Below, one piece after another: positions 26,299 to 63,350 of a stretch of 64,000 nucleotides of DNA (position 1 is its first letter; each line of letters starts with the position of its first letter). Origin of the DNA: a virus (lineage: Duplodnaviria > Heunggongvirae > Uroviricota > Caudoviricetes); IMG/VR virus record IMGVR_UViG_3300035698_032497. One strand, given 5' to 3'. The notes beneath the pieces were generated by a model, which saw nothing but the letters and a program-made list of their open reading frames with translations, was not told where the DNA came from and ran no database searches. The position numbers and the translations under genes were made by a program.

Positions 26299-26345
26299 CG
26301 TCGTAGGTGTTGTTCCACCCCTGGTAGAAAAAAACCACCATTTCC

Positions 26346-26372
26346 TTGACGCCACATGGGGCTCCAGATAGT
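26346..26372 (+). promoter_or_regulatory. promoter TTGACG-(15-17)-TAGTCT, candidate for tRNA array 1
   Basis: Family-like -35/-10 about 290 nt upstream of the first tRNA; coordinates ±2. Confidence 0.35.
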
Positions 26373-26537
26373 CTTGTCACGTGAGCCCGACGTTTCAGCG
26401 GGCAGAGAGACTCATGAACCCTGTCATCGCCACCACCTGTTCATCGTTTAGCAGCTTGCTCTCCAGCAGCTGGCTGCTCTACGTGCAGTCGGAGGTGGCT
26501 TCGTAGGTTCGGACTCAATCCCGCCCAGACGAATGTT

Positions 26538-26580
26538 AGCCCCCTCCGGCCCCCCGCCGCGAGGGGGCTTCCTCGTGTCT
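26538..26580 (+). terminator. GC-rich hairpin (9-bp stem AGCCCCCTC/GAGGGGGCT) followed by a T-rich tract
   Basis: Sits between the helicase gene and tRNA array 1. Confidence 0.4.
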
Positions 26581-26662
26581 GGTCTTGTTCTTTGACATCG
26601 CAACATCGTGCAGAAGATGGATTTCATCGATCGATCGATAGGATCGATCGTGTTCTGCATCT

Positions 26663-26756: not shown

Positions 26757-26848
26757 GGGTAAGTGGCATCTGCTGGTATAGGGTGCGTCGGGCTGTAAAC
26801 CCGGAGCCAATGTGGCCGTCGGGGGTTCGATTCCCTCCTTACCCACCA
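26757..26848 (+). tRNA. tRNA-Tyr(GTA), type II
   Basis: Acceptor GGGTAAG/CTTACCC, anticodon loop CTGTAAA, long variable arm, CCA encoded. Confidence 0.8.
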
Positions 26849-27006: not shown

Positions 27007-27100
27007 TTTCATGCGGACCGGGCCCGCAGCCAACAGCCAACAGCCAACAGCCAACAGCTGCTCGCTGCGCTCGCTGGCCATAGACACTGTTCGTTTTTCT
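27007..27100 (+). repeat. spacer repeat A containing (CAACAGC)x4 heptad tandem repeat (27031..27058)
   Basis: Re-used with divergence at 27544..27646 between the second Ser-tRNA pair. Confidence 0.7.
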
Positions 27101-27284: not shown

Positions 27285-27442
27285 CGCGGACGAGAGAGAC
27301 TTCGTGTGAGTTCAGAATACTGTAGGTTCGAGTCCTACTTCCCCCACCACCATGGGGGAATGGCGGAATGGCAGACGCAACCGACTTGAAATCGGTCTCA
27401 TTCGAGACGACTCTATTACACTCCCTCACTCTCTTGTTCGCG
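27285..27442 (+). ncRNA. circularly permuted tRNA-Ser(UGA)-like element closed by a 14-bp terminal helix (Y-RNA-like)
   Basis: Order is T-arm GTAGG-TTCGAGT-CCTAC, acceptor 3' TTCCCCC, loop ACCACCAT, acceptor 5' GGGGGAA, D-arm GCG…CGC, anticodon arm ACCGA-CTTGAAA-TCGGT. Flanks CGCGGACGAGAGAG and CTCTCTTGTTCGCG pair over 14 bp with 2 G-U. Confidence 0.45.
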
Positions 27443-27543: not shown

Positions 27544-27646
27544 TCTCATGCGGACCTTTGGTCGGCAGCCAACAGCCGACAGCCTACAACCAACAGCCGA
27601 CAGCTGCTCGCTGCGCTCGCTGGTCATGGACATTGTTCGTTTTTCT
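27544..27646 (+). repeat. spacer repeat A' with degenerate CAACAGC/CGACAGC heptads
   Basis: About 85% identical to 27007..27100. Confidence 0.7.
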
Positions 27647-28276: not shown

Positions 28277-28346
28277 ATCGGCCGTCCAGGGGCACTGCAG
28301 GTCTCCAAAACCCGCGGGCAAAGTTCGATTCTTTGGGCCGGTGCCA
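28277..28346 (+). pseudogene. degenerate tRNA-like element (pseudo-tRNA)
   Basis: Acceptor ATCGGCC/GGCCGGT-G-CCA and T-arm CAAAG-TTCGATT-CTTTG are present, but there is no canonical D/anticodon arm. Confidence 0.3.
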
Positions 28347-46645: not shown

Positions 46646-47686
46646 TTACACCTCGAACTGTTCAGCCTCATGGTAGGCACGGCGGCGGTCCCAGCCAGTG
46701 GCGATGACCATGGAGGCGTACATGACAGCGTCGCCATCGCGCACGATCTGACCGATCCATTGGTCGCTCTTGGCGGTCTGAAGCGTGAACGGGCTCAGCT
46801 GCTGGTCGGTCTCGACGGCCATCGGGATGGCGACCATGTCGCGGACCAGAGCCCGGGCGCGTTCGTCCTCTTCGGCCTCTACGCTCTCGAGCATGCGCTC
46901 GAGGTCCTCGAGGCTGTCAGCGTCGTCGAACAGGGGGACGCGCGTGGCGGGTGGATCTTGGCCAACCATGACGCTCTTGCGCTTCTGTACGGCCACGGCC
47001 TGTGCGCCGTAGCAGCTGCGGATCAGGGGCTCCCACACCGCAGTCCACCAGGCACGTGACGGGGCGCGCTCGAGTCCGACCACCACGCCGTCCAGCAGAA
47101 CGATGGCTCCGATCTGGTCTGGGACCAGCTCGAACTGGGCCACGAAGCTGTCCAGCTGCTCGGCGTAGCGCTCGAAGAACAGCTTCATGTTGCCGCGGTC
47201 GGGGATTCCGGCCTCGGTGTTGAACTGCCCGATGGAGTCCCACATGCGGCTGTAGCCATCGTAGCTGCTGCCCTTGTGGCGCTTCGAGGTGGCCGTCTCG
47301 CGCAGCCCCAGCGGAAGGATGGCGAGCCGGTGCTGCCCGATTGAGATGGTGTTGGGCTGGTTCGCCTCGATGCAGACTGCGTTGTCGAAGTGCGCTCTGC
47401 TCTTCTTGGCTACCAGGCCAGCTCCCACCATGGCGTGGTCCTGGGTCCGCTGCTTGGTCATGTAGGCAGCGTGCGCCGGGATGATCATCGGCTTGTCGCT
47501 CTTGTTCTCGGCGATGATGGTGCCATAGGTGGCGGTGCCGACGTAGGCTTCGGTGGGGACCTGGAAGCGGTCGTCTTCGAGCTCGAGATCGGTGAGGATC
47601 AGGGGCACGACCTGCATCAGGCCGACGGACTGCATGCGGCCGGCGCGGCAGCCACGCAGGGCGTCACGGGCGGTGAGGGTGTTCAT
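46646..47686 (-). CDS. hypothetical protein (same operon as the Ro60-like gene)
   Basis: 346 aa. Confidence 0.55.
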   Translation of the reverse strand: MNTLTARDALRGCRAGRMQSVGLMQVVPLILTDLELEDDRFQVPTEAYVGTATYGTIIAENKSDKPMIIPAHAAYMTKQRTQDHAMVGAGLVAKKSRAHFDNAVCIEANQPNTISIGQHRLAILPLGLRETATSKRHKGSSYDGYSRMWDSIGQFNTEAGIPDRGNMKLFFERYAEQLDSFVAQFELVPDQIGAIVLLDGVVVGLERAPSRAWWTAVWEPLIRSCYGAQAVAVQKRKSVMVGQDPPATRVPLFDDADSLEDLERMLESVEAEEDERARALVRDMVAIPMAVETDQQLSPFTLQTAKSDQWIGQIVRDGDAVMYASMVIATGWDRRRAYHEAEQFEV

Positions 47687-48232: not shown

Positions 48233-49951
48233 TCAGTCCCCCAGCAGCGCTGCGGCCTTCTGCGCTACCAGCGCCAGGCCTTGGGCGGGGTCGCTCTCCA
48301 GCAGGCCGCGGACCAGGGACAGGCCCAGGGCTGTGGGATCGGAGACCGGCATGGTGGTGGCGATGCCGGGGGCGAGTGGACGTACGCCGCCCTTCTCGCC
48401 GGCCATGACGGGGTTGAACTGGAAGACGGGGGTGTCGATACCCATGCGGCGCACCGCGGCCAGCACCTCGGCCACACGCCCTGCGGGGGCGTTCTCGTAG
48501 CCGTCGGAGACGATGAACAGCACGTCTGGGGTGGCTCCTGGCGCGAGATCGGAGTCGTAGCGGAGGGCCTTGATGACGGCGGAGGCGATGGAGGTGTCTC
48601 CGGCTGGCCGGACGAGCTCGACAGGGAAGCTGTCGGCTTCCGCATCGGGTTCACCACCACAGTAGAACGTCTTGGCGCTCTCGGTGCAGGTCGCCATCAG
48701 GGTGTCGCGCATAGACAGGGCGATGGACATCGGGCGCAGCTTCTGCTCATCCGATCCGGCCATGGATTCGGAGCAGTCTACGACGATGGCCACGTGTTCG
48801 TAGCTCATGCCGAGCACGGAAGCGGCAGTGTGCGCCTTGCGGGCGATGGCCGCGGCGACGCGCTCGTCCAGCCCGACCTCGAAGGCGTGGACCCACAGCT
48901 GCACCAGGCCGAGCTTCATCGGATCGAACTCGACCTCGATGCCGGCGGACTTGGCGCGCTTCTGGACAGCACCCCGCTGACGCTGGGTCATGGAGCCGCC
49001 CTTTCCCTTGGCGTTGGTGCGGCTGGTCAGCGCGATGACGTCGTCCTTGGAGACGGTGGGGTGGTAGTGGCCCCGGATGCCCTCGAGCACCTCGGGGGGC
49101 AGCACGGTGCCCTTGGCCAAGTCGAGCCTGGCCTCGTAGAAAGCGAGGAACAGACCGGAGCGCCAGGTGTGGTGCTCCAGCTTGCGGCCGGCGATGAAGG
49201 CGAGGGCCTCGGCGAGACGGACGGGCTTGTCGATCCCGGTGTCGAGGAAGATGCCGGTGTCGACCGGATGCATTGCGCTGATGAACTGTACGAAGGCTCT
49301 CTCTCGAGGATCGCTGGGCGGGACCTGTTCCGCAGCCAGGTTGTCCAGCCAGGTCGCGGCCGAGCTGCAGATCACGCCGAACTCACGGCTCCCGAGGGCG
49401 TGCTTCAGCGCGCTCTTGATCTTGCCGCGGTACTTGACGCTCCACCAGTGCAGCTTGGTAGAGCCGATGATGGCCCCGAGGATGACCTTGCGCGTCCGCT
49501 TGTTGTTGACGCGTCGCTTGCGCAGCTCGTCGAACAGCTTGAACATGCGCTGGGGCGGCAGCTGGCTGATGAGCTTGCTGATCACCATCCACTCATCGGG
49601 GTTTACGACGTTGGTGACAGAGCTGTCGATGGGAGAGGACAGCAGGCGCAGCAGGGCCTGGCTCTTGGCGCGGTCCAGGGCCCCGGGCATGGCGGCCAGC
49701 GCGCCGTAGATGCGGCGATCGACCATGAAGGCCCGGTCGTGGACCAGGGCCTCGGCGGCATCCTGCTCTTCGCGGGTGTTGTAGGCGGTGGCGCGGCCGG
49801 TGCCGGTGCCGATGAGGTCCATCCAGGACAGGATCGCCGTGCCGGCGGCGACGGCGTTTCCGTTGGACTGGCCGGAGACCAGGGCCTGTGGTACATCGCT
49901 CAAAGGCCTGTCGAGCAGGCCCAGGGCGAGGGTCGAGATTTCGGTGTTCAT
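48233..49951 (-). CDS. rsr: TROVE/Ro60-like (Rsr-like) protein with C-terminal vWA domain
   Basis: C-terminal vWA with MIDAS DCSESM (DxSxS) in the last third, as in Ro60; alpha-helical N-terminal ~380 aa; two tRNA-like RNAs immediately upstream; start at the ATG with a GGAGGA RBS. Confidence 0.5.
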   Translation of the reverse strand: MNTEISTLALGLLDRPLSDVPQALVSGQSNGNAVAAGTAILSWMDLIGTGTGRATAYNTREEQDAAEALVHDRAFMVDRRIYGALAAMPGALDRAKSQALLRLLSSPIDSSVTNVVNPDEWMVISKLISQLPPQRMFKLFDELRKRRVNNKRTRKVILGAIIGSTKLHWWSVKYRGKIKSALKHALGSREFGVICSSAATWLDNLAAEQVPPSDPRERAFVQFISAMHPVDTGIFLDTGIDKPVRLAEALAFIAGRKLEHHTWRSGLFLAFYEARLDLAKGTVLPPEVLEGIRGHYHPTVSKDDVIALTSRTNAKGKGGSMTQRQRGAVQKRAKSAGIEVEFDPMKLGLVQLWVHAFEVGLDERVAAAIARKAHTAASVLGMSYEHVAIVVDCSESMAGSDEQKLRPMSIALSMRDTLMATCTESAKTFYCGGEPDAEADSFPVELVRPAGDTSIASAVIKALRYDSDLAPGATPDVLFIVSDGYENAPAGRVAEVLAAVRRMGIDTPVFQFNPVMAGEKGGVRPLAPGIATTMPVSDPTALGLSLVRGLLESDPAQGLALVAQKAAALLGD

Positions 49952-50039
49952 GGCGTCCTCCATCATCATGGAGGGACAGTGGGGCCGAGCTGGGGTGCCG
50001 AGGGGTCGTGAACAAAGAGCGGTTTTGACACCGCGACTT

Positions 50040-50125
50040 CCTGGGTGTGAACCAAGCGCTCTACTCTGAGCTATCTTTTCTGAAACCTCGGCCGAGCTCT
50101 CGGCCCTTGACTGTACCTCCGTTGA
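50040..50125 (-). ncRNA. degenerate tRNA-Val(CAC)-like structure inside the rsr 5' leader
   Basis: Minus-strand GGTTTCAGAAAAGA-TAGCTCAGAGTAGAGCG-CTTGG-TTCACAC-CCAGG…, followed by the GGCCGAGAGCTCGGCC hairpin. Confidence 0.3.
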
Positions 50126-50186: not shown

Positions 50187-50298
50187 GAGGAAAGATGGGA
50201 CGCTGCGGGGGGGGTCAAGGGATCTTCTGTGGTGCCCGGTTTCTGGATCCGGGGACCGATCCTGTGATCTTCGGAAGGGGTCAAGAGACAGGGCGGGG

Positions 50299-50417
50299 GG
50301 CCGAAGCGGTAGCTTTTGGAGACAATGCTCTACCGCTGAGCTATCTGCCCCGAGGGGCAGAACGGGGATCGAACCCGCGACCTTCGTCGTGATGTACTGG
50401 AGCTTCGGTGTAGCTCC
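50299..50417 (-). ncRNA. Y-RNA-like tRNA mimic (YrlA-type module)
   Basis: Minus strand has GACGA-AGGTC-[GCGGG TTCGATC CCCGT]-TCTGCCCC-TCGG-GGGCAGA-TA-[GCTC AGCGGTA GAGC]-A-TTGTC. Acceptor stem is capped by a tetraloop, there is no anticodon loop, and GACGA/TTGTC forms the connector stem. Confidence 0.45.
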
Positions 50418-50471: not shown

Positions 50472-50549
50472 TGGTGAGTGAAACGGGACTCGAACCCGCG
50501 ACCTCCGGTGCGTGACACCGGCGCTCGTGACCTACTGAGCTATTCATTC
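50472..50549 (-). tRNA. tRNA-Val(CAC)
   Basis: Minus strand GAATGAA-TA-GCTC…GAGC-CCGGT-GTCACGC-ACCGG-AGGTC-GCGGG-TTCGAGT-CCCGT-TTCACTC-A-CCA; one A·C mismatch in the acceptor stem. Confidence 0.6.
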
Positions 50550-63260: not shown

Positions 63261-63350
63261 CGGGCAGTAGCGCAGCATGGTAGCGCACCAGTTCGGGGTA
63301 CTGGGGGTCGCGGCTCCTGCGGAGCGCGTTGAGTCCCGCCTGCCCGACCA
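63261..63350 (+). tRNA. tRNA-Pro(GGG)-like with unusual extra hairpin in the variable region
   Basis: Anticodon arm CCAGT-TCGGGGT-ACTGG, then a GCGGCTCC-TGC-GGAGCG hairpin before the T-arm. Confidence 0.4.

What the first reader, a model, noticed from the sequence alone, without database searches (positions are those of the whole stretch)
27285..27442. Circularly permuted tRNA-Ser(UGA)-like element with a 14-bp closing helix inside tRNA array 1
This element sits between tRNA-Phe and tRNA-Ser(CGA). Its order is T-arm (GTAGG-TTCGAGT-CCTAC), acceptor 3' strand TTCCCCC, 8-nt loop ACCACCAT containing CCA, acceptor 5' strand GGGGGAA, a canonical D-arm, then a complete anticodon arm with loop CUUGAAA.

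The two flanks CGCGGACGAGAGAG and CTCTCTTGTTCGCG are complementary over 14 bp with two G-U pairs, closing the element where the variable arm would be.

This is either a permuted tRNA gene whose transcript is processed or circularised, or a second Y-RNA-like tRNA mimic for the Ro60-like protein encoded 22 kb away. Neither would be found by standard tRNA scanners.
Basis: seen in the sequence. Interest (0 to 1): 0.8.

Follow-up and report, generated by a model that had tools for sequence, protein, structure and literature searches.

The report
Permuted tRNA-shaped RNA in phage
A giant uncultivated phage carries, inside one of its tRNA gene clusters, a conserved gene for an RNA that folds like a complete tRNA but with its two halves in swapped order on a long stalk. 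This form was not known from bacteria or their viruses and looks like a link between ordinary tRNA pairs and the tRNA-mimicking 'Y RNAs'.

Summary
Window 27285-27442 (+) reads: closing helix, T arm, acceptor 3' strand, loop ACCA-CCAU, acceptor 5' strand, D arm, anticodon arm (CUUGAAA), closing helix. I also found a small hairpin after the anticodon arm and a second stalk helix (P2).

The element is real. Two other uncultivated phage lineages (helicase about 70% identical) carry it at the same place, between tRNA-Phe and tRNA-Ser(CGA). RNAalifold recovers the permuted cloverleaf unaided, with 9 compensatory pairs. The closing helix has a different sequence in the TARA relative but still pairs over 15-17 bp. 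The core is as conserved as the neighbouring tRNAs, while the spacers are not.

The acceptor loop looks like a tandem-tRNA junction: encoded ACCA, 4-5 pyrimidine-rich bases, U at -1. RNase P therefore probably cuts it into a two-piece RNA (65 + 89 nt).

The element fails the membership tests for YrlA, permuted tmRNA and algal or archaeal permuted tRNA genes. I rate it a new variant of a known kind. Its function is untested.

The parts
27285..27298 (+). P1 closing helix, 5' strand (CGCGGACGAGAGAG). It contains GGACGA, which is kept in all three lineages.
   Evidence: Pairs with 27429-27442 over 14 bp (15 with U27284-A27443). 0 of 5000 shuffles reach this length. L022 shows a G-C to A-U change. 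L011 has a different sequence, GTCACGGCTGGGACG/CGTCCCGGTCGTGAC.
27299..27303 (+). Internal loop between P1 and P2, 5' side (ACUUC).
   Evidence: ACUU is conserved in all three lineages.
27304..27311 (+). P2 stalk helix, 5' strand (GUGUGAGU).
   Evidence: Pairs with 27410-27413 and 27418-27421. The equivalents are GUGCGAG/CUCGUAC in L022 and CGUGAG/CUCGCG in L011, read. One position reads U-A, C-G and U.G in the three lineages. RNAalifold instead proposes a local hairpin AACUU/GAGUU here, so P2 is probable but not certain.
27312..27321 (+). Single-stranded joiner into the T arm (UCAGAAUACU). UCAG is conserved. The last U sits at position 48.
   Evidence: U precedes the T stem and A15 is present in all three, so an A15-U48 Levitt pair is possible (sequence).
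27322..27338 (+). T arm: 5-bp stem and loop UUCGAGU.
   Evidence: Two of the 5 pairs change on both sides in L011 (G-C to C-G, U-A to C-G).
27339..27345 (+). Acceptor stem, 3' strand (UUCCCCC).
   Evidence: 7 of 7 Watson-Crick pairs with 27354-27360. One pair changes from C-G to U-A in L011.
27346..27353 (+). Acceptor loop: A73 plus CCA (27346-27349), then the spacer CCAU ending in U(-1).
   Evidence: ACCA and the final U are kept in all three lineages while the rest differs (CCAU, CUAU, UUUUU). The same layout is seen at real tandem-tRNA junctions in this window.
27354..27360 (+). Acceptor stem, 5' strand (GGGGGAA). The predicted RNase P cut is between U27353 and G27354.
   Evidence: The cut is inferred from M. 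smegmatis YrlA (PMC4201824).
27361..27379 (+). U8 G9, D arm (GCG / GAAUGGCAGA / CGC) and A26.
   Evidence: 3-bp stem with one compensatory pair in L011. A14 and G18G19 are kept.
27380..27396 (+). Anticodon arm ACCGA-CUUGAAA-UCGGU (anticodon UGA, 27387-27389).
   Evidence: The stem is identical in all three lineages. The loop is CUUGAAA in the window and L022 and CUCGACA in L011.
27397..27406 (+). Small hairpin CUC-AUUC-GAG in the variable-arm position.
   Evidence: The stem is invariant. The loop is AUUC or UUUUUC.
27410..27421 (+). P2 stalk helix, 3' strand (ACUC [UAUU] ACAC).
   Evidence: See the P2 5' strand.
27422..27428 (+). Internal loop, 3' side: C-rich UCCCUCA. With C27421 it could pair 6 bp with GGGGGAA as an alternative acceptor partner.
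   Evidence: The Rfam tRNA model uses it for a 25-bit sub-threshold hit at 27354-27428. UCCCC is kept in all three lineages. I read it as a fossil of a second tRNA's 3' end, or as an alternative pairing. This is unresolved.
27429..27442 (+). P1 closing helix, 3' strand (CUCUCUUGUUCGCG).

Best explanation
The element is a functional gene for a stable RNA of about 158 nt with the shape of a circularly permuted type-II tRNA.

Shown:
- The RNA's two ends pair into a long stalk: P1 of 14-17 bp, a conserved internal loop, and probably P2 of 6-8 bp.
- On top of the stalk sits a full cloverleaf in the order T arm, 7-bp acceptor stem closed by a loop, D arm, anticodon arm, small hairpin.
- The gene sits in the same slot of a conserved tRNA array in three phage lineages, and it evolves like its tRNA neighbours.

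Inferred:
- It is co-transcribed with the array. Processing of tRNA-Phe (4-5 nt upstream) and of tRNA-Ser(CGA) (11-20 nt downstream) releases it.
- The acceptor loop is built like a tandem-tRNA spacer: encoded ACCA, 4-5 pyrimidine-rich bases, U at -1. RNase P therefore cuts before G27354 and exonucleases trim back to CCA.
- The product is a two-piece molecule of 65 nt ending in CCA plus 89 nt starting at G1, held together by the acceptor stem and the stalk.

More speculative:
- It acts as a tRNA mimic of the YrlA/Y-RNA kind rather than in decoding. It could be a scaffold or decoy for tRNA-binding proteins, possibly the phage's own Ro60-like protein.
- It most likely arose from two tandem type-II tRNA genes.
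For: Presence and synteny:
- The element lies between tRNA-Phe and tRNA-Ser(CGA) in the window, in the TARA scaffold L011 and in the L022/L023 scaffolds.

Structure:
- RNAalifold, with no input from me, recovers P1, the T arm, the acceptor stem, the D arm, the anticodon arm and the small hairpin: 42 pairs, 9 of them compensatory.
- In my core structure 98.6% of cells are paired and 4 pairs change on both sides. Slid controls give 29-51% paired and no such pairs.
- No flank shuffle reaches the observed terminal helix, 0 of 5000 in each lineage.
- The proposed fold lies within 1.2-7 kcal/mol of the minimum free energy.

Selection:
- The core is 76% (window vs L011) and the whole element 88% (window vs L022) identical. 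Orthologous tRNAs range from 58 to 93%. Spacers differ in length and are 6-68% identical.

Processing:
- 29 of 30 tRNA genes in the window encode CCA. Their trailers are pyrimidine-rich, the -1 base is U in 15 of 30, and real tRNAs here are separated by as little as 4-5 nt.
- M. smegmatis YrlA has a 7-bp closed acceptor stem. It is cut by RNase P and gains CCA in vivo (PMC4201824).

Mimic rather than decoder:
- The L011 loop CUCGACA has C37, and its D stem has only 2 Watson-Crick pairs.
- The phages already carry canonical tRNA-Ser(UGA) and tRNA-Ser(CGA).

Ro60 context:
- A YrlA-like RNA lies at 50297-50409(-) (36.9 bits, E 2e-6).
- GGACGA in the 5' stalk strand is kept in all three lineages. 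It resembles the GNCGAAN0-1G / CGAA Ro60-binding motif.

Origin:
- YrlA has been proposed to derive from dimeric tRNA transcripts (bioRxiv 10.1101/312249).
- Ser-Ser junctions in this same array already show 7 of 7 acceptor pairing.
Against: - There are no expression or end-mapping data. Every processing step is inferred.
- Only three lineages exist, two of them close, so covariation rests on few independent events.
- The Rfam YrlA model gives no hit on the element at E<=10 in either the window or L011.
- The element is about 21 kb from the Ro60-like gene and on the opposite strand. Known Y RNAs lie within 4 kb on the same strand.
- The motif match is imperfect: GACGAG in two lineages, and GACGAA without the trailing G in L011.
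- The intact 7-nt anticodon loop with U33, Ser anticodons in all three lineages and encoded CCA are what a real tRNA would have.
- P2 competes with a conserved local hairpin.
Confidence: 0.55

Rival explanations
1. It is a genuine two-piece (split) decoding tRNA. After RNase P cleavage and 3' trimming, the two pieces form a type-II tRNA with an oversized variable-region stalk. A synthetase (SerRS, or LeuRS/TyrRS given A73) charges it, and it reads UCA/UCG on the ribosome.
For: - The full cloverleaf is present, with U8, A14, G18G19, a T loop UUCGAGU, a possible A15-U48 pair, a 7-bp acceptor stem and encoded ACCA.
- The anticodon loop has 7 nt with U33. The window/L022-to-L011 anticodon difference (UGA to CGA) is at wobble position 34 and stays within the Ser box. 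The window and L022 have A36A37A38, like the phage's own tRNA-Ser(UGA).
- Two-piece tmRNA shows that a permuted acceptor/T module can be charged (my own knowledge).
Against: - L011 has C37, whereas purine is near-universal at position 37 of elongator tRNAs (my own knowledge). Its D stem has only 2 bp.
- The stalk of about 22 bp plus an extra hairpin at the variable position is far longer than any known variable arm.
- A73 does not match the G73 or U73 of this phage's Ser tRNAs.
- It would be redundant with the canonical tRNA-Ser(UGA) and tRNA-Ser(CGA) in the same array.
Confidence: 0.2
2. It is a non-functional relic: the decayed junction of two tandem tRNA genes, retaining the T arm and 3' end of the first and the 5' half of the second.
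For: - The order T arm, CCA, short spacer, 5' half is exactly that of a tandem junction.
- Among non-self tRNA pairs in the window, 23 of 650 give 7 of 7 acceptor pairing, and the Ser-Ser junctions do so too.
- ARAGORN of 25 artificial junction chimeras.
- A possible fossil second acceptor 3' strand lies at 27421-27428.
Against: - The element is retained at the same position in three lineages whose spacers have diverged beyond alignment.
- Compensatory changes occur in the T, acceptor and D stems, and P1 is replaced by a different but still pairing sequence.
- The terminal helix is not expected by chance.
- The model R1 scores the element at 128-140 bits and real junctions at 18-33 bits. This comparison favours the element, because R1 was built from these same three sequences.
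Confidence: 0.05
3. It is an operon-processing or stability element. The long P1-P2 stalk would be an RNase III-type site or a protective clamp in the polycistronic tRNA transcript, and the tRNA-like interior would be incidental.
For: - The stalk is 14-17 bp plus 6-8 bp, and its length is kept although its sequence is replaced.
- It starts 2-5 nt after the tRNA-Phe CCA in all three lineages.
Against: - The interior is the best-conserved part and keeps the tRNA tertiary-contact nucleotides, ACCA and covarying tRNA stems.
- A mere processing stem would not need these.
Confidence: 0.07
4. It is an attP-like or integration-site remnant that copies the 3' end of a host tRNA-Tyr gene.
For: The 28-nt T arm, acceptor strand and ACCA are identical to the 3' end of tRNA-Tyr(GUA) genes on 9 IMG/VR contigs. 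Some of those copies are truncated at contig or prophage ends.
Against: - Identity stops at the T stem.
- L011 differs at both strands of the T and acceptor stems in a compensatory way, including the 5' acceptor strand, which an att site would not contain.
- The element sits inside a tRNA operon of a 385-kb phage contig.
- I did not look for an integrase near the array, so its absence is not established.
Confidence: 0.02

Closest known systems
YrlA-type bacterial and phage Y RNAs (Rfam RF02553), especially Mycobacterium smegmatis YrlA
   Same: - The 5' and 3' ends pair into a stem.
- The interior has the order T arm, closed acceptor stem, D arm, which amounts to a permuted tRNA mimic.
- M. smegmatis YrlA has a 7-bp acceptor stem, is cut by RNase P and ends in CCA (PMC4201824).
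- Phages with Ro60 homologues carry such RNAs, and this phage has a Ro60 structural homologue.
   Different: - YrlA has no anticodon loop, because its closing stem replaces the anticodon stem. Here the anticodon arm is complete and the stalk leaves from the variable region.
- CCA is encoded here rather than added.
- The D arm here is type-II (3 bp), whereas YrlA has a conserved class-I D arm.
- The element lies 21 kb from the Ro60-like gene on the other strand, inside a tRNA array.
- The Rfam YrlA model does not match it, although it does match another RNA in the window.
Circularly permuted tRNA genes of Cyanidioschyzon merolae, some green algae and Thermofilum pendens
   Same: - The 3' half of the gene lies upstream of the 5' half.
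- The acceptor stem starts as a closed loop that RNase P and a 3' nuclease open.
- The transcript ends pair with each other (as summarised in bioRxiv 10.1101/312249).
   Different: - Those genes rely on a bulge-helix-bulge motif, the tRNA splicing endonuclease and a ligase. These make a circular intermediate and a contiguous canonical tRNA.
- No such motif is present here, and no such endonuclease is known in bacteria.
- The stalk here is 14-17 + 6-8 bp with a 5x7-nt internal loop, so the product would stay in two pieces.
Two-piece (permuted) tmRNA of alpha-proteobacteria, cyanobacteria and others (Rfam RF04321)
   Same: - The gene order is T arm, acceptor 3' strand with CCA, intervening loop, acceptor 5' strand.
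- The mature RNA stays in two base-paired pieces (my own knowledge).
   Different: - There is no tag reading frame, pseudoknots or G3.U70. The element has G3-C70.
- ARAGORN finds no tmRNA in the window.
- The RF04321 match is 14 bits, E 0.9.
- The element has a D stem and an anticodon arm, which tmRNA lacks.
Ordinary tandem (dimeric) tRNA junctions
   Same: - Locally the order is T arm, CCA, short spacer, acceptor 5' strand, D arm.
- Such junctions are a known false positive for YrlA models, and they score 18-33 bits with my model R1.
   Different: - Here neither half belongs to a complete tRNA.
- The two halves are closed by a covarying stalk, and the unit is conserved as a whole.

Membership tests
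YrlA / Y RNA | Match to the family covariance model (Rfam RF02553, gathering score 69 bits) | tested here: not met
   No YrlA hit on the element at E<=10, either in a 451-nt scan of the window or in a 196-nt scan of L011. The same model gives 36.9 bits at window 50297-50409.
YrlA / Y RNA | 5'/3' terminal stem enclosing T arm, closed acceptor-like stem and D arm | tested here: met
YrlA / Y RNA | GNCGAAN0-1G (CGAA) motif near the 5' end, the presumed Ro60 contact | tested here: inconclusive
   The window and L022 have GACGAGAG, one transition off. L011 has GACGAACU, which carries CGAA but no trailing G. GGACGA is conserved in all three lineages. The motif is short, so chance is not excluded.
YrlA / Y RNA | Encoded within about 4 kb of the Ro60 gene on the same strand | tested here: not met
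   The Ro60-like gene is at 48233-49951(-). The element is at 27285-27442(+), about 21 kb away.
YrlA / Y RNA | Bound by Ro60 | not testable with these tools
   Needs EMSA or co-immunoprecipitation.
Canonical tRNA gene | Detected by ARAGORN or by Rfam RF00005 at gathering score in native order | tested here: not met
   ARAGORN finds nothing. RF00005 gives 25 bits (gathering 29) on 27354-27428 using a different 3' strand, and only 15.5 bits in L011.
Circularly permuted tRNA gene (algal/archaeal type) | 3' half upstream of 5' half, and the rotated sequence folds as a cloverleaf | tested here: met
   ARAGORN calls all nine rotated constructs with the stalk removed. It does not call the full rotation that keeps the stalk. 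ARAGORN also of 25 artificial junction chimeras, so the weight rests.
Circularly permuted tRNA gene (algal/archaeal type) | Bulge-helix-bulge motif at the paired termini for the splicing endonuclease, with a circular intermediate | tested here: not met
   The termini form a 14-17 bp helix, a 5x7-nt internal loop and a 6-8 bp helix. There are no 3-nt bulges spaced by 4 bp. The circular RNA itself cannot be tested here.
Two-piece tmRNA | Tag reading frame, pseudoknots and G3.U70, with a match to RF04321 or an ARAGORN tmRNA call | tested here: not met
   ARAGORN finds no tmRNA. RF04321 gives 14.1 bits, E 0.91. The acceptor stem has G3-C70.
tRNA-Ser isoacceptor | Serine anticodon, long variable arm, and the discriminator used by the phage's own Ser tRNAs | tested here: inconclusive
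   The anticodons are UGA, UGA and CGA. The discriminator is A73, whereas the phage's Ser tRNAs have G73 or U73 and its Leu and Tyr tRNAs have A73. No paralogue in the window is close. Charging cannot be tested here.

The most novel reading that the evidence does not exclude
The element is the first permuted, permanently two-piece tRNA of the bacterial and phage world. RNase P and 3' trimming would open the acceptor loop, a synthetase would charge the 65-nt piece, and the complex would decode UCA/UCG. The synthetase might be LeuRS or TyrRS because of A73, which would mean deliberate Ser-to-Leu/Tyr miscoding or recoding during infection. No splicing endonuclease or ligase would be involved.
Probability: 0.15. 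Interest if true: 0.9.

Novelty: new variant of a known kind. Interest (0 to 1): 0.66.

Why it matters
YrlA RNAs have been described as resembling circularly permuted tRNAs, and they have been proposed to descend from dimeric tRNA transcripts (bioRxiv 10.1101/312249). This element looks like that intermediate caught in place. It still sits in a tRNA operon. It still has an anticodon arm, an encoded CCA and possibly the fossil 3' strand of the second tRNA. Yet it is already closed by a 5'/3' stalk.

It gives a concrete substrate for three questions:
- Can bacterial RNase P and exonucleases make a two-piece tRNA?
- Can such an RNA be charged?
- Do phage Ro60 homologues use tRNA-array-encoded partners?

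It also shows that standard tRNA scanners and Rfam miss a conserved tRNA-shaped gene in giant-phage tRNA arrays. Counts of phage 'tRNA' repertoires may therefore overlook such mimics.

Tried and rejected
Searches for more relatives:
- Megablast of the array against 50,697 phage records found no match. The DnaE protein has hits below 36% identity only. The phage is uncultivated; its parent contig is 385 kb (ENA ERZ27316532).
- IMG/VR: the 28-mer hit only ordinary tRNA-Tyr genes and att-like ends. Four other patterns found nothing. A helicase-based locus search found nothing.
- The single JGI metagenome scan gave 7 chance matches.
- The single GTDB genome scan gave 3 chance hairpins.
- Loci of helicase homologues at about 40% identity have no tRNA array.

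Readings and tests I set aside:
- A linear, T-arm-less tRNA at 27354-27428 scores 25 bits in the window but only 15.5 bits, with a different 3' strand, in L011. Rejected.
- ARAGORN on rotated constructs is positive, but a control with artificial junction chimeras is positive in 16 of 25 cases. I treat it as weak evidence.
- Acceptor complementarity alone occurs in 3.5% of non-self tRNA pairs. Weak evidence.
- No recent paralogue exists among the window's 30 tRNAs.
- The MFE fold pairs the T loop with the anticodon region in the window. This pairing is not conserved in L011.

The Ro60-like protein:
- Pfam, PHROGs and PDB sequence searches found only a weak VWA signal.

I also considered and rejected the attP-remnant, pseudogene and tmRNA readings; see the rival explanations and membership tests.
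Full report
**1. Observation**

In order it reads:

- CGCGGACGAGAGAG (P1, 5' strand)
- 23 nt
- GTAGG-TTCGAGT-CCTAC (T arm)
- TTCCCCC (acceptor 3' strand)
- ACCACCAT (loop)
- GGGGGAA (acceptor 5' strand)
- TG
- GCG-GAATGGCAGA-CGC (D arm: 3 bp plus G13.A22, the type-II style)
- A
- ACCGA-CTTGAAA-TCGGT (anticodon arm)
- 32 nt
- CTCTCTTGTTCGCG (P1, 3' strand)

One is a 3-bp hairpin CTC-ATTC-GAG directly after the anticodon arm. The second is another long-range helix, P2 (GTGTGAGT, 27304-27311, with ACTC[TATT]ACAC, 27410-27421). The third is an internal loop between P1 and P2.

ARAGORN (30 tRNAs in the window) and Rfam at gathering score both miss the element. The single-sequence fold has z = -3.8 and always keeps the closing helix and the acceptor hairpin.

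**2. Where the window comes from**

The window has no near match among 50,697 phage records. Its DnaE has only hits below 36% identity. It belongs to a 385-kb metagenomic contig (ENA ERZ27316532), evidently a giant phage. The window carries 30 tRNA genes, a DnaE-type polymerase, a lysozyme and methylases.

**3. Relatives**

The adjacent RecD-like helicase has only two close relatives, at 69-70% identity. A neighbouring 779-aa protein has only two other clusters. Their contigs give two further lineages: the TARA scaffold L011 and the L022/L023 scaffolds.

Both keep the same tRNA order: Leu, Tyr, Ser, Ser, Phe, [gap], Ser(CGA), Ser(UGA), Cys, Leu and so on. Both carry a homologous element in the gap between Phe and Ser(CGA). 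The coordinates are L011 12090-12250 and L022 18303-18142 (-).

Pattern scans found nothing further. IMG/VR gave no homologue of the element in six scans; one of them, the 28-mer, hit only ordinary tRNA-Tyr genes. The JGI metagenome scan and the GTDB genome scan gave only chance matches. Phages with helicases at about 40% identity have no array at that position. The element is therefore confined, as far as these collections show, to a rare group of marine or environmental phages.

**4. Structure and covariation**

RNAalifold on the three full sequences used no input from me. It returns P1, the T arm, the acceptor hairpin, the 3-bp D stem, the anticodon arm and the small hairpin. That is 42 pairs, 9 of which change on both sides.

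On the well-aligned core (A2), my stated structure has 23 pairs. Of its cells, 98.6% are paired and 4 pairs are compensatory: two in the T stem, one in the acceptor stem and one in the D stem. Sliding the partners by 1-3 columns gives 29-51% paired and no compensatory pairs. Only 4 of 500 column shuffles reach the observed values.

P1 shows the following:

- L022 has one G-C to A-U change.
- L011 has a different sequence, GTCACGGCTGGGACG/CGTCCCGGTCGTGAC, that still pairs. Only GGACG with its partner is shared.
- Including flanking pairs, the helices are 15, 17 and 17 bp.
- None of 5000 flank shuffles per lineage reaches these lengths.

P2 is GUGUGAG/CUC..ACAC in the window, GUGCGAG/CUCGUAC in L022 and CGUGAG/CUCGCG in L011. 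One position reads U-A, C-G and U.G in the three lineages. RNAalifold prefers a conserved local hairpin here (AACUU/GAGUU), so I treat P2 as probable only.

The full proposed fold lies within 1.2-7 kcal/mol of each sequence's minimum free energy.

**5. Selection**

Between the window and L011 the core is 76% identical. Between the window and L022 the whole element is 88% identical. Orthologous tRNAs in the same arrays range from 58 to 93%. Inter-tRNA spacers differ greatly in length (for example 94, 14 and 107 nt) and are 6-68% identical. The element therefore evolves like a functional tRNA gene, not like a spacer.

**6. Controls that temper the tRNA call**

With the stalk removed and the halves rotated, ARAGORN calls a type-II tRNA in all three lineages, with anticodons UGA, UGA and CGA. 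The full rotation that keeps the stalk is not called. However, ARAGORN also of 25 chimeras that I built from ordinary tandem junctions. In addition, 23 of 650 non-self tRNA pairs in the window give 7 of 7 acceptor pairing, including the Ser-Ser junctions.

The rotated call and acceptor complementarity are therefore weak evidence on their own. The case rests on the stalk, the conservation and the covariation. Model R1 scores the element at 128-140 bits and real junctions at 18-33 bits. This gap favours the element because R1 was built from these three sequences.

**7. Processing (inferred)**

In all three lineages the acceptor 3' strand is followed by ACCA. The loop ends in U just before G1. 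The bases in between differ: CCAU, CUAU and UUUUU.

In this window 29 of 30 tRNA genes encode CCA. Their trailers are pyrimidine-rich, the -1 base is U in 15 of 30, and true neighbouring tRNAs are separated by as little as 4-5 nt. The loop is thus built like a tandem-tRNA spacer that the host machinery must already cut elsewhere in this transcript.

M. smegmatis YrlA also has a closed 7-bp acceptor stem. It is cut by RNase P in vitro and in vivo and then carries CCA (PMC4201824).

I therefore infer cleavage between U27353 and G27354, followed by trimming to A27349. This gives pieces of 65 and 89 nt held together by the acceptor stem and the stalk. P1 begins 2-5 nt after the CCA of tRNA-Phe and ends 11-20 nt before the next tRNA. 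Normal tRNA processing would thus free the unit. A conserved promoter-like TTGACA-N17-GAAGAT lies upstream of the array in all three lineages, although the consensus scan did not score it.

**8. What it does**

Three points argue against decoding as the conserved function:

- L011 has CUCGACA, with a pyrimidine at position 37, and only two Watson-Crick pairs in the D stem.
- The variable position carries a stalk of about 22 bp plus an extra hairpin.
- Canonical tRNA-Ser(UGA) and tRNA-Ser(CGA) sit 14-200 nt downstream.

The identity is also chimeric:

- The T arm and acceptor strand are 28 of 28 identical to bacterial tRNA-Tyr genes in IMG/VR.
- The D arm resembles that of tRNA-Leu (my own knowledge of the E. 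coli tRNA-Leu sequence).
- The discriminator is A73, as in the phage's Leu and Tyr tRNAs, not the G or U of its Ser tRNAs.
- No paralogue in the window is close.

Several points favour a Y-RNA-like role:

- The 572-aa product of 48233-49951 (-) has no Pfam hit. It has an invariant DxSxS motif.
- Rfam YrlA matches 50297-50409 (-), just upstream of that gene, at 36.9 bits (E 2e-6, below gathering score).
- Phage Ro60 proteins bind Y-like RNAs that carry a CGAA motif in a 5'/3' stem (PMC12135203).
- The element's stalk keeps GGACGA in its 5' strand in all three lineages. L011 reads GACGAA and the other two read GACGAG.

Other points argue against it:

- The element is 21 kb from that gene, on the other strand.
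- The YrlA model does not match it.
- Known Y RNAs lie within 4 kb of the Ro60 gene.

One further observation bears on this. A 65%-identical Ro60-like gene (L034) lacks a detectable YrlA upstream. It does keep a degenerate tRNA-like RNA that abuts the gene.

My best reading is a processed tRNA mimic whose partner is unknown, with the phage Ro60 homologue as one candidate. A true two-piece decoding tRNA remains possible, at about 0.15-0.2.

**9. Origin**

The C-rich 3' side of the internal loop is CUCCCUC-A in the window, CUCCCCC-G in L022 and AUCCCC-A in L011. It can pair 5-6 bp with the acceptor 5' strand. The Rfam tRNA model uses it for its 25-bit hit.

Together with the junction-like loop, this fits descent from two tandem type-II tRNA genes. 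On this view, the first gene's T arm and 3' end and the second gene's 5' half were kept, and the remainders became the stalk. This is the route proposed for the origin of YrlA (bioRxiv 10.1101/312249). Whether the C-rich strand is a fossil or an alternative pairing is unresolved.

**10. Comparison and verdict**

- The element works like a YrlA-type permuted tRNA mimic, and possibly like a two-piece tmRNA or tRNA.
- It is not a member of RF02553, RF04321 or RF00005 by their models.
- It lacks the bulge-helix-bulge motif that defines algal and archaeal permuted tRNA genes.
- I rate it a new variant of a known kind. It is a full-cloverleaf permuted tRNA-shaped gene, with encoded CCA and an anticodon arm, inside a phage tRNA operon.
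- A search of the held literature found no report of a permuted tRNA gene in bacteria or phages.

The main limits are that only three lineages are available and that there are no expression data.

Noticed in passing
[not shown]
   Followed up: yes
window 50297-50409 (-): A YrlA-like RNA (Rfam RF02553, 36.9 bits, E 2e-6, below the gathering score of 69). It has a T arm, an 8-bp closed acceptor-like stem and a class-I D arm, and lies just upstream of the Ro60-like gene. It is not detected upstream of the 65%-identical Ro60-like gene in L034.
   Followed up: partly
window 50011-50080 (-) and 50472-50549 (-): A degenerate tRNA-like RNA with anticodon CAC and T loop UGUCAAAA (Rfam tRNA 42.5 bits; missed by ARAGORN) abuts the start of the Ro60-like gene. 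It is conserved in L034 (337-401). A normal tRNA-Val(CAC) lies 400 nt further upstream. The degenerate RNA could be another Ro60 partner.
   Followed up: partly
window 26340-26590 (+): A stretch of about 250 nt between the helicase gene and the tRNA array has 82% column identity across the three phage lineages. It starts with a promoter-like TTGACGCC...GATAGT and ends in a GC-rich hairpin (AGCCCCCTCCGG...CCGCGAGGGGGCT). It has no Rfam match at E<=1 and no conserved reading frame visible in the alignment. It is a candidate unknown small RNA.
   Followed up: partly
window 26590-26660 (+): A conserved promoter-like TTGACATCGCA...GAAGATGG is followed by two copies of the palindrome GGATCGATC just before the first tRNA of the array, in all three lineages. 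The consensus promoter scan did not score it.
   Followed up: no
window 27007-27100 and 27544-27646 (+): Two long inter-tRNA spacers carry the same design: CAGCCAACAGCC-type short repeats followed by CTGCTCGCTGCGCTCGCTGG. L022 has different repeats (GCTATCCGCT and GGTAGGCGGTGAGCGG) at the same two places, and L011 has CCGACCTCCG repeats. Their purpose is unknown.
   Followed up: no
window 26757-26848, 28277-28346, 63261-63350: Three oddly sized tRNA calls: tRNA-Tyr of 92 nt with the anticodon at position 39, tRNA-Trp of 70 nt with the anticodon at position 29, and tRNA-Pro(GGG) of 90 nt. Rfam's tRNA model at gathering score does not list the Tyr, Trp or Pro(GGG) calls.
   Followed up: no
window 46646-47686 (-): A protein with ARPP-1/ARPP-2 domains (E 4e-27) is encoded next to the Ro60-like gene on the same strand. 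It may belong to the same RNA-related module.
   Followed up: no
IMG/VR loci L001-L009: The element's 28-nt T arm, acceptor strand and ACCA are identical to the 3' end of a bacterial-type tRNA-Tyr(GUA) gene on nine viral contigs. Several copies are truncated at contig ends or lack the 5' half, as at prophage att sites. This may hint at the tRNA family from which the element's 3' part derives.
   Followed up: partly
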